A stretch of DNA of 53,635 bases from positions 1 to 53,635 of IMG/VR virus record IMGVR_UViG_2537561603_000004; one strand, given 5' to 3'. A program made the translations under genes and the position numbers. This document shows positions 45,800 to 46,543 of the stretch, one piece after another. Below the pieces are notes generated by a model. The model was not told the origin of the DNA. It worked only from the letters and a program-made list of their open reading frames with translations, and made no database searches. The DNA comes from a virus. Its lineage: Duplodnaviria; Heunggongvirae; Uroviricota; Caudoviricetes. Positions within the stretch are counted from its first letter, which is position 1. Every line of letters begins with the position of its first letter.

Positions 45800-46543
45800 A
45801 TGACACAGACAGAATCAGCGATTCTGGCGCACGCCCGGCGATGTGCGCCAGCGGAGTCGTGTGGCTTCGTGGTGAGAACGCCGAAGGGGGAAAGATATTT
45901 TCCCTGCGTGAATATCTCCGGTGAGCCGGAGGCGTATTTCCGGATGTCGCCGGAGGACTGGCTGCGGGCAGAGATGTAGGGTGAGATTGTGGCGCTGGTC
46001 CACAGCCACCCCGGTGGTCTGCCCTGGCTGAGTGAGGCTGACAGGCGGCTGCAGGTGCAGAGCGATTTGCCGTGGTGGCTGGTCTGCCGGGGTGAGATTC
46101 ATAAATTCCGCTGTGTGCCGCATCTTACCGGGCGGCGCTTTGAGCACGGGGTGACGGACTGTTACACGCTGTTCCGGGATGCTTATCATCTGGCGGGGAT
46201 TGAGATGCCGGATTTTCATCGCGGGGATGACTGGTGGCGTCACGGTCAGAATCTCTATCTGGATAATCTGGAGGCCACAGGGCTGTATCAGGTGCCGTTG
46301 TCATCAGCACAACCGGGCGATGTGCTGCTGTGCTGTTTTGGTTCATCGGTGCCGAATCATGCCGCCATTTACTGTGGTGATGGCGAGCTGCTGCACCATA
46401 TTCCTGAACAACTGAGCAAACGAGAGAGGTATACCGACAAATGGCAGCGACGCACACACTCCCTCTGGCGTCACCGGGCATGGCACGCATCTGCCTTTAC
46501 GGGGATTTGCAACGATTTGGCCGCCGCATCGATCTTCGTGTGA
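45800..46543 (+). pseudogene. K: Tail assembly protein K interrupted by an in-frame amber codon (TAG at 45977-45979)
   Basis: Translation matches lambda K on both sides of the stop (…MSPEDWL.AEM * GEIVALVHSHPGG…); the position is Gln (CAG) in my recollection of lambda K. Confidence 0.8.

What the first reader, a model, noticed from the sequence alone, without database searches (positions are those of the whole stretch)
45800..46543. In-frame amber stop codon inside tail assembly gene K
The K reading frame is lambda-like on both sides of a TAG at 45977-45979, at a position I recall as Gln (CAG) in lambda K. Unless suppressed, this truncates K at 59 aa and would block tail assembly. Combined with the split E gene, the prophage as sequenced may be unable to produce virions unaided.
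Basis: seen in the sequence. Interest (0 to 1): 0.5.

Follow-up and report, generated by a model that had tools for sequence, protein, structure and literature searches.

The report
Amber-inactivated tail gene K in prophage
A single C-to-T change has put a stop codon into the tail-assembly gene K of a lambda-like prophage of E. coli AA86; the change is real and inherited, but it is an ordinary recent knockout in a prophage that is slowly decaying.

Summary
Window 45800-46543 is a 247-codon lambda-K-type gene (JAB/MPN plus NlpC/P60 peptidase domains), and codon 60 (45977-45979) is TAG. The nearest intact copies, in three complete E. coli genomes, differ from it by only that base (CAG to TAG). 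Lambda also has Gln at residue 60.

It is not a sequencing error. The window is the IMG/VR prophage call from E. coli AA86, and four other public assemblies carry the identical TAG allele. The allele is rare: none in 3,974 complete genomes with this stretch, and none in IMG/VR against at least 120 CAG copies.

The stop cuts the JAB domain in half and removes all of the NlpC/P60 domain. No suppressor tRNA lies in the window, and no convincing restart signal follows the stop.

The "split E gene" is not decay. It is a known helper-embedded satellite (HE-PICI, "11capE" type), and simulated precise excision restores E. K Q60* is therefore the only irreversible lesion I found among the lambda-like head and tail genes.

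Sister copies carry their own private lesions, which points to relaxed selection.

Verdict: an ordinary, recent nonsense pseudogene. Low interest.

The parts
45800..46543 (+). Tail-tip assembly gene K (247 codons, JAB/MPN + NlpC/P60), inactivated by an internal amber codon
   Evidence: One base different from the intact K of Rb-23, 1002W03 and TUM14697. 94.5% nt identity to lambda K.
45977..45979 (+). TAG at codon 60; derived C->T at 45977 (CAG Gln -> TAG)
   Evidence: Shared with L009-L012. Absent from 3,974 complete E. coli genomes that match a 71-nt probe and from IMG/VR (against >=120 CAG copies).
45800..45979 (+). Predicted product in a non-suppressing host: 59-aa N-terminal half of the JAB domain. 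It keeps Glu19 but lacks H68/H70/S78/D81 and the whole NlpC/P60 domain.
   Evidence: Pfam Prok-JAB profile positions 3-57 of 114. Motif positions. Alignment to the JAB structure 2kks covers K residues 7-109.
45989..46543 (+). Residual 184-codon ORF from GTG, 10 nt after the TAG. Gene callers annotate it as an 'NlpC/P60' protein. A possible restart product, but nothing supports restart.
   Evidence: Anti-SD pairing is -4.5 kcal/mol, and 34% of sampled positions are equal or better.
45097..45795 (+). Gene L, upstream neighbour; carries a private R166G change at 45592 found only in AA86
46441..47112 (+). Gene I, downstream neighbour. Its lambda-type ATG start has its own strong SD, so little polarity from the K stop is expected.
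   Evidence: SD is -9.3 kcal/mol at ATG 46441 against +0.3 at the PGAP-type GTG 46540.
27076..27320 (+). 5' part of major capsid gene E (left of the embedded satellite)
27321..38047 (+). Helper-embedded satellite (HE-PICI, 11capE type). It carries an integrase, an Icd-like gene, a D5-type primase-helicase, SSB, its own E-like capsid and D-like decoration genes, AlpA, a cos-like segment and a TIR+DUF3298 gene.
   Evidence: Literature.
38048..38828 (+). 3' part of E. Joined to the 5' part it gives an intact 341-aa ORF.

Best explanation
This is a recent, lineage-private nonsense mutation (CAG->TAG, Q60*) in gene K of a Perceval/'50icd'-type lambdoid prophage. The prophage sits at icd in E. coli AA86 and close relatives. 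In an ordinary, non-suppressing host, translation stops after 59 residues. The fragment holds half of the JAB/MPN fold and none of the zinc-ligand motif or the NlpC/P60 peptidase, so K function is lost. K is needed to build the lambda tail tip, so the prophage should make heads but no functional tails unless another prophage supplies K. The satellite embedded in the prophage's capsid gene would then have no tails from this helper either. The lesion most likely arose and persists under relaxed selection on a vertically inherited prophage, which may be kept for its cargo genes (sitABCD, iss/bor and an inverse autotransporter). Shown here: the base change, its derived state, its inheritance, and its position in the domain. 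Inferred: loss of function, the tail-less phenotype, and neutrality.
For: The window's K differs by a single base from three intact orthologues in otherwise near-identical prophages. The allele is identical in four other assemblies. The source is E. coli AA86. The TAG allele is absent from 3,974 complete genomes and from IMG/VR. The stop lies inside the JAB domain, ahead of H68-x-H70, S78, D81, and ahead of C121/H187 of NlpC/P60. gpK is required for tail assembly and is not a virion component. The window has no tRNA gene and no above-background SD before the next in-frame start. Sister copies carry different private lesions: TUM14697 has DUF4222 Y31*, and Rb-23 and 1002W03 have a frameshift in the satellite primase. 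Of 8 substitutions among these copies, 2 are nonsense, 4 missense and 2 synonymous. Roughly 3-4% of K copies in IMG/VR are frameshifted (3-4 of 100 full-length copies), so K decay is not unusual. About 3.5% of random substitutions in these late genes would create a stop, which gives a 10-13% chance of at least one among the lineage's 3-4 substitutions.
Against: No experiment on AA86 was available, so the phenotype is inferred from lambda genetics. K differs from intact copies by only one base, so there is no further decay that would prove long-term loss of constraint. The rest of the AA86 genome could not be searched for a suppressor tRNA or a second K copy. Two nonsense changes among 8 substitutions is more than neutral expectation, so selection for inactivation cannot be excluded.
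Confidence: 0.85

Rival explanations
1. Sequencing or assembly error: the true base is C and K is intact.
For: AA86 is a 2011 draft genome. A neighbouring change (L R166G, 45592) is seen only in AA86.
Against: Four other assemblies from different ENA and Logan samples have the same T in a K gene that is 100% identical.
Confidence: 0.02
2. Split but functional K. Ribosomes terminate at TAG and restart at GTG 45989, 10 nt downstream, giving a 184-aa protein with the HxH/S/D motif and the NlpC/P60 domain that still supports tail assembly, perhaps together with the 59-aa fragment.
For: The ORF is open from the GTG and gene callers pick it. NlpC/P60-only K variants exist next to gene I in some phages and prophages (Iyer et al. 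2006).
Against: SD pairing before the GTG is at background level (-4.5 kcal/mol; 34% of positions are equal or better). The cut falls in the middle of the JAB fold, between Glu19 and H68/H70. Iyer et al. themselves suggest the NlpC/P60-only forms are degenerate prophage variants. The arrangement is not conserved: 0 TAG against >=120 CAG in IMG/VR.
Confidence: 0.05
3. The amber is read through. A host suppressor tRNA, or basal near-cognate Gln insertion at UAG, yields enough full-length K, which acts in small, non-structural amounts.
For: gpK is not found in virions, so little may be needed. Gln insertion would restore the wild-type residue (established knowledge of supE).
Against: The window has no tRNA gene. 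Natural E. coli isolates rarely carry amber suppressors, and classical lambda K amber (sus) mutants are non-permissive in sup0 hosts; both points rest on established knowledge and were not tested here. The host genome could not be searched.
Confidence: 0.04
4. Selected inactivation rather than neutral decay. Loss of K was favoured because it locks a cargo-rich prophage and its satellite in the chromosome or lowers the cost of induction.
For: Two of 8 substitutions among near-identical copies are nonsense, plus one frameshift, against about 3.5% expected per substitution. The prophage carries sitABCD, iss/bor and an adhesin-like autotransporter.
Against: A tail defect does not prevent induction or lysis, so it gives the induced cell no obvious benefit. 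The three lesions hit unrelated genes (K, a DUF4222 gene, the satellite primase). The counts are too small for a test. The allele is rare.
Confidence: 0.08

Closest known systems
Bacteriophage lambda gpK (tail tip assembly protein K; TAPK of Iyer et al. 2006)
   Same: Same position, L-K-I-J. Same two-domain architecture, JAB/MPN + NlpC/P60. 94.5% nucleotide identity and 236/247 residue identity after repair. Gln at residue 60.
   Different: Here codon 60 is TAG. Note that the lambda reference record annotates only 199 aa, because it lacks one base near codon 45. Re-sequenced lambda records have that base.
Classical lambda sus (amber) mutants in gene K
   Same: An amber codon in K. The expected phenotype is conditional: no active tails in sup0 hosts and rescue by a Gln-inserting suppressor (established knowledge).
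   Different: Those are laboratory mutants selected on suppressor hosts. This is a natural allele in a wild B2 E. coli lineage, with no evidence of a suppressor.
Escherichia phage Perceval (LF82 prophage at icd, Bievrevirus, OV696612)
   Same: Same prophage type. It has icd integration, sitABCD cargo and the same tail module, and its K is 99.5% identical. It is an active, plaque-forming siphovirus.
   Different: Perceval K has CAG at codon 60 and its record has an uninterrupted E. Its early and moron regions differ.
Eco567.61icd composite: HE-PICI 11capE inside capsid gene of prophage 50icd (Tommasini, Mageeney & Williams 2023)
   Same: Same architecture: an ~11-kb satellite with its own capsid gene, integrated in E of an icd lambdoid prophage. 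The same D|E|integrase junction occurs in 172 complete genomes.
   Different: That paper does not report K lesions. In NRG857c, K reads CAG (99.5% identical). Its authors could not recover plaques from that strain either.
NlpC/P60-only TAPK variants in prophages (Iyer et al. 2006)
   Same: Annotation of this locus yields an 'NlpC/P60-only' protein beside gene I, the pattern those authors suspected to be degenerate prophage forms.
   Different: Here the origin is directly visible: one nonsense change in an otherwise intact two-domain gene.

Membership tests
Lambda gpK / TAPK family | N-terminal JAB/MPN domain with the E...HxH...S..D motif | tested here: met
E19, H68, H70, S78 and D81 are present in the reading frame. 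Aligns to the JAB structure 2kks.
Lambda gpK / TAPK family | C-terminal NlpC/P60 papain-like peptidase domain | tested here: met
   PF00877, residues 111-224, E 1.6e-12. C121, H187 and H199/200 are present.
Lambda gpK / TAPK family | Gene lies between L and I/J in a lambda-type tail module | tested here: met
   ORF order H-M-L-K-I-J. Matches the annotations of Rb-23, TUM14697, Perceval and lambda.
Lambda gpK / TAPK family | Uninterrupted reading frame encoding both domains (a functional member) | tested here: not met
   TAG at codon 60.
Nonsense pseudogene (recent) | In-frame stop at a sense codon of intact orthologues, in the derived state | tested here: met
   CAG in lambda, Perceval, Rb-23, 1002W03 and TUM14697, and in 99 of 100 IMG/VR copies (the remaining copy is frameshifted). 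TAG only in the AA86 lineage.
Nonsense pseudogene (recent) | Real allele, not an error: seen in independent assemblies | tested here: met
   L009-L012.
Nonsense pseudogene (recent) | No suppressor available | tested here: inconclusive
   No tRNA gene in the window.
Programmed stop-codon readthrough / recoding | Stop codon conserved among relatives | tested here: not met
   0 matches for the TAG pattern against >=120 for CAG in IMG/VR. No 100% match to the TAG probe in 3,974 complete genomes.
Helper-embedded PICI composite (context of the 'split E') | Satellite with integrase and AlpA inserted in, and co-oriented with, a helper late gene; precise excision restores that gene | tested here: met
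   Integrase at 27484-28719 and AlpA at 35706-36089. In-silico excision of 27321-38047 gives a 341-aa E. Excision was shown experimentally only for NRG857c, in the literature.

The most novel reading that the evidence does not exclude
The K amber is not neutral. It could be a selected or conditionally rescued lesion in a three-way system of host, cargo-rich helper prophage and embedded satellite. For example, tails might be supplied only when a second lambdoid prophage with a near-identical tail module is co-induced. Rb-23 carries two prophages whose tail proteins from the tape-measure protein H to J, K included, have identical protein accessions. Helper and satellite spread would then depend on prophage 'community' complementation or recombinational repair.
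Probability: 0.08. Interest if true: 0.35.

Novelty: already known. Interest (0 to 1): 0.1.

Why it matters
The practical value is for annotation. This locus should be called a K pseudogene (Q60*), not an 'NlpC/P60 family protein'. The prophage in E. coli AA86 and its relatives should be scored as tail-defective, even though its interrupted capsid gene is only conditionally interrupted. The case also shows that an apparently 'broken' capsid gene can be a regulated satellite insertion, while the real lethal lesion is a single base elsewhere. It opens no long-standing question.

Tried and rejected
1. An exact look-up of the 59-aa fragment seemed to show the allele in five NCBI drafts. Reading the DNA showed N-runs or contig ends after ...ATGCA, so these are artefacts that carry C.
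2. A suppressor tRNA in the prophage: none found.
3. A restart signal at GTG 45989: SD pairing is at background level.
4. Polarity on gene I through translational coupling: I has its own strong SD at the lambda-type ATG, so I did not pursue this.
5. The TAG allele in complete E. coli genomes and in IMG/VR: no match.
6. I first took the 380-aa ORF beside E for an integrase. Pfam shows TIR_2 + DUF3298, and the satellite integrase is at 27484-28719.
7. I suspected the DUF4222 gene near the prophage integrase gene (int) was also broken in the window. It is intact here, and the stop is private to TUM14697.
8. I did not run the large protein-homology searches or a structure prediction, because their answers would not change the verdict.

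Full report
**Observation**

The stretch 45800-46543 is one reading frame of 247 codons. It starts at ATG 45800, 4 nt after the stop of gene L, and ends at TGA 46541-46543. It has a single internal TAG at 45977-45979, which is codon 60. With codon 60 read as Gln, the protein matches Pfam Prok-JAB (residues 3-105, E 4e-14) and NLPC_P60 (residues 111-224, E 1.6e-12). It lies in the lambda order H-M-L-K-I-J.

It is 94.5% identical in DNA to lambda K. It is 236/247 identical in protein once the reference's missing base is restored, and lambda has Q at residue 60.

**Is the T real?**

The best matches among 5,426 complete E. coli genomes are 99.9% identical. For Rb-23, 1002W03 and TUM14697 the only difference in 744 nt is C instead of T at 45977. 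A 71-nt probe centred on the TAG found no perfect match in 3,974 genomes that carry this stretch.

An exact look-up of the 59-aa N-terminal product returned five NCBI drafts. Reading the DNA showed scaffolds broken by N-runs or contig ends directly after ...GAGATGCA. These are artefacts, and they carry C.

An exact look-up of the 184-aa ORF that follows the TAG returned 11 contigs. The four loci shown come from one ENA infant-gut metagenome, one other ENA assembly and two Logan run assemblies. All four have a 744-nt K that is 100% identical to the window, TAG included. The two longest also have the split E gene.

An exact look-up of the window's L protein identified the source as GCA_000211395.2, contig AFET01000001.1. 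This is E. coli AA86, a phylogroup B2 strain. The window itself is the IMG/VR record of 53,635 bp. The allele is therefore real and inherited within a lineage.

It is also rare.

**What the element is**

The window is a composite. Comparison with Rb-23, TUM14697 and 1002W03 shows a lambdoid prophage integrated at icd, with sitABCD as cargo. The window is cut just before sitD.

Its characterised relative is phage Perceval of strain LF82. Perceval is an active, plaque-forming siphovirus whose K is 99.5% identical and reads CAG.

The capsid gene E is interrupted at 27321-38047 by a 10,727-bp island. The island encodes:
- a tyrosine integrase
- an Icd-like protein
- a D5-type primase-helicase
- SSB
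- its own E-like capsid protein and D-like decoration protein
- AlpA
- a cos-like segment about 90% identical to the helper's cos region
- a TIR+DUF3298 gene

This is the published helper-embedded PICI configuration, '11capE' in '50icd', described for E. coli NRG857c. After mitomycin induction of that strain the composite excised and replicated, and the satellite then excised precisely. The same D|E|integrase junction is present in 172 complete genomes. Joining the two E parts of the window across the shared AAGCA gives an intact 341-aa E.

So the 'split E' is a conditional interruption, not decay. All other lambda-type head and tail genes are open and are annotated as intact in the near-identical TUM14697 copy; only the side tail fibre gene is flagged partial there. 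K Q60* is therefore the only irreversible lesion I found among the lambda-like head and tail genes.

**Consequence for the protein**

The JAB motif residues are E19, H68, H70, S78 and D81. The NlpC/P60 residues are C121, H187 and H199/200. Alignment to the solved JAB protein 2kks spans K residues 7-109. A stop at codon 60 leaves half a JAB fold with only E19, and none of the second domain.

According to the literature, gpK is required for lambda tail assembly but is not detected in virions. Iyer et al. predicted that its peptidase domains process the ubiquitin-like protein I. They also noted NlpC/P60-only variants that may be degenerate prophage forms.

The window has no tRNA gene. The next in-frame start, GTG 45989, has anti-SD pairing of -4.5 kcal/mol, which is no better than 34% of sampled positions. 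Gene I has its own strong SD at the lambda-type ATG 46441 (-9.3 kcal/mol), so strong polarity on I is not expected.

The inferred phenotype is no functional tails from this prophage in a non-suppressing host, unless K comes from another prophage. E. coli genomes with K-like sequence have a median of 3 copies. Rb-23 has two prophages whose tail proteins from the tape-measure protein H to J, K included, have identical protein accessions.

**Why it is there**

The window differs from the three complete-genome copies at very few sites outside a repeat-rich autotransporter gene:

| Site or gene | Change | Seen in |
|---|---|---|
| rusA | R22R (synonymous) | window |
| holin | A85S | window |
| K | Q60* | window and L009-L012 |
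| L | R166G | AA86 only |

Sister copies carry their own lesions. TUM14697 has Y31* in a DUF4222 gene and W92R in G. Rb-23 and 1002W03 share a 1-nt deletion in the satellite primase.

Among these near-identical copies I count 8 substitutions and one frameshift. Two substitutions are nonsense, four missense and two synonymous. About 3.5% of random substitutions in these late genes would make a stop. That gives a 10-13% chance of at least one among the lineage's 3-4 changes.

In IMG/VR, 3-4 of 100 full-length K copies are frameshifted. This fits relaxed purifying selection on a vertically inherited prophage. The numbers are too small to exclude selection for inactivation.

**Comparison and verdict**

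The gene is a member of the lambda gpK/TAPK family in every tested feature except an intact frame. It behaves like a natural counterpart of the classical lambda K amber mutants. The stop is not conserved, which rules out programmed readthrough as a family trait. Sequencing error is excluded. Restart, readthrough and selection remain minor possibilities.

The finding is real but ordinary: a recent nonsense pseudogene. Its main use is correct annotation, and a prediction that AA86-lineage strains cannot release tailed particles of this helper or its satellite without outside help.

**Limits**

No experiment was available. The rest of the AA86 genome could not be searched for a suppressor tRNA or further K copies.

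Noticed in passing
window 27321-38047 (E halves at 27076-27320 and 38048-38828): The 'split E' is a 10.7-kb helper-embedded satellite (HE-PICI, 11capE type). It has its own E-like capsid and D-like decoration genes, AlpA, a primase and an integrase. Simulated excision restores E. The same junction is found in 172 complete E. coli genomes.
   Followed up: yes
L014 (lambda NC_001416) 14224-14314, compared with window 45920-45950: The lambda reference (J02459/NC_001416) lacks one base near codon 45 of K (GGAGGC-TATTTCC). Its K is therefore annotated as 199 aa from Met49. Independently sequenced lambda records and all relatives have the base, which gives a 247-aa JAB+NlpC/P60 protein. This is probably an old sequencing error that has propagated into annotations.
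   Followed up: partly
window 1656 (DUF4222 gene 1509-1748, minus strand); window 32182 (satellite primase 31286-33106): Near-identical copies in other strains carry their own private lesions. TUM14697 has Y31* (also an amber) in the DUF4222 gene. Rb-23 and 1002W03 share a 1-nt deletion that frameshifts the satellite primase. Both genes are intact in the window.
   Followed up: yes
window 45592: L R166G (CGT->GGT) is private to AA86. The other TAG-carrying assemblies and all relatives have C. It could be a strain-specific change or a base error in the 2011 draft.
   Followed up: partly
window 9973-13881: A large inverse-autotransporter (intimin/invasin-like) cargo gene varies in repeat number between otherwise identical prophages: 1302 aa here, 1183 aa in TUM14697, and 1421 aa in Rb-23 and 1002W03.
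   Followed up: no
window 36688-37830 (minus strand): The satellite carries a TIR_2 + DUF3298 gene at its right end. It may be an anti-phage defence cargo.
   Followed up: no
window 36115-36320 and 20912-21117: The satellite holds a ~206-bp segment about 90% identical to the helper's region just upstream of the small terminase gene (the cos region). This is consistent with packaging by the helper terminase.
   Followed up: no
L004-L008 (NCBI draft assemblies): Several draft E. coli assemblies break at the same nucleotide inside K, right after ...GAGATGCA. This produces spurious 59-aa 'proteins' in public databases that mimic the amber-truncated product.
   Followed up: yes
window end 53635; L009 17739 onward; L019: The IMG/VR prophage call stops before sitABCD. 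These genes lie inside the prophage, between the tail-fibre region and the icd' remnant, and are part of the Perceval phage genome. The true element is about 59-61 kb.
   Followed up: partly
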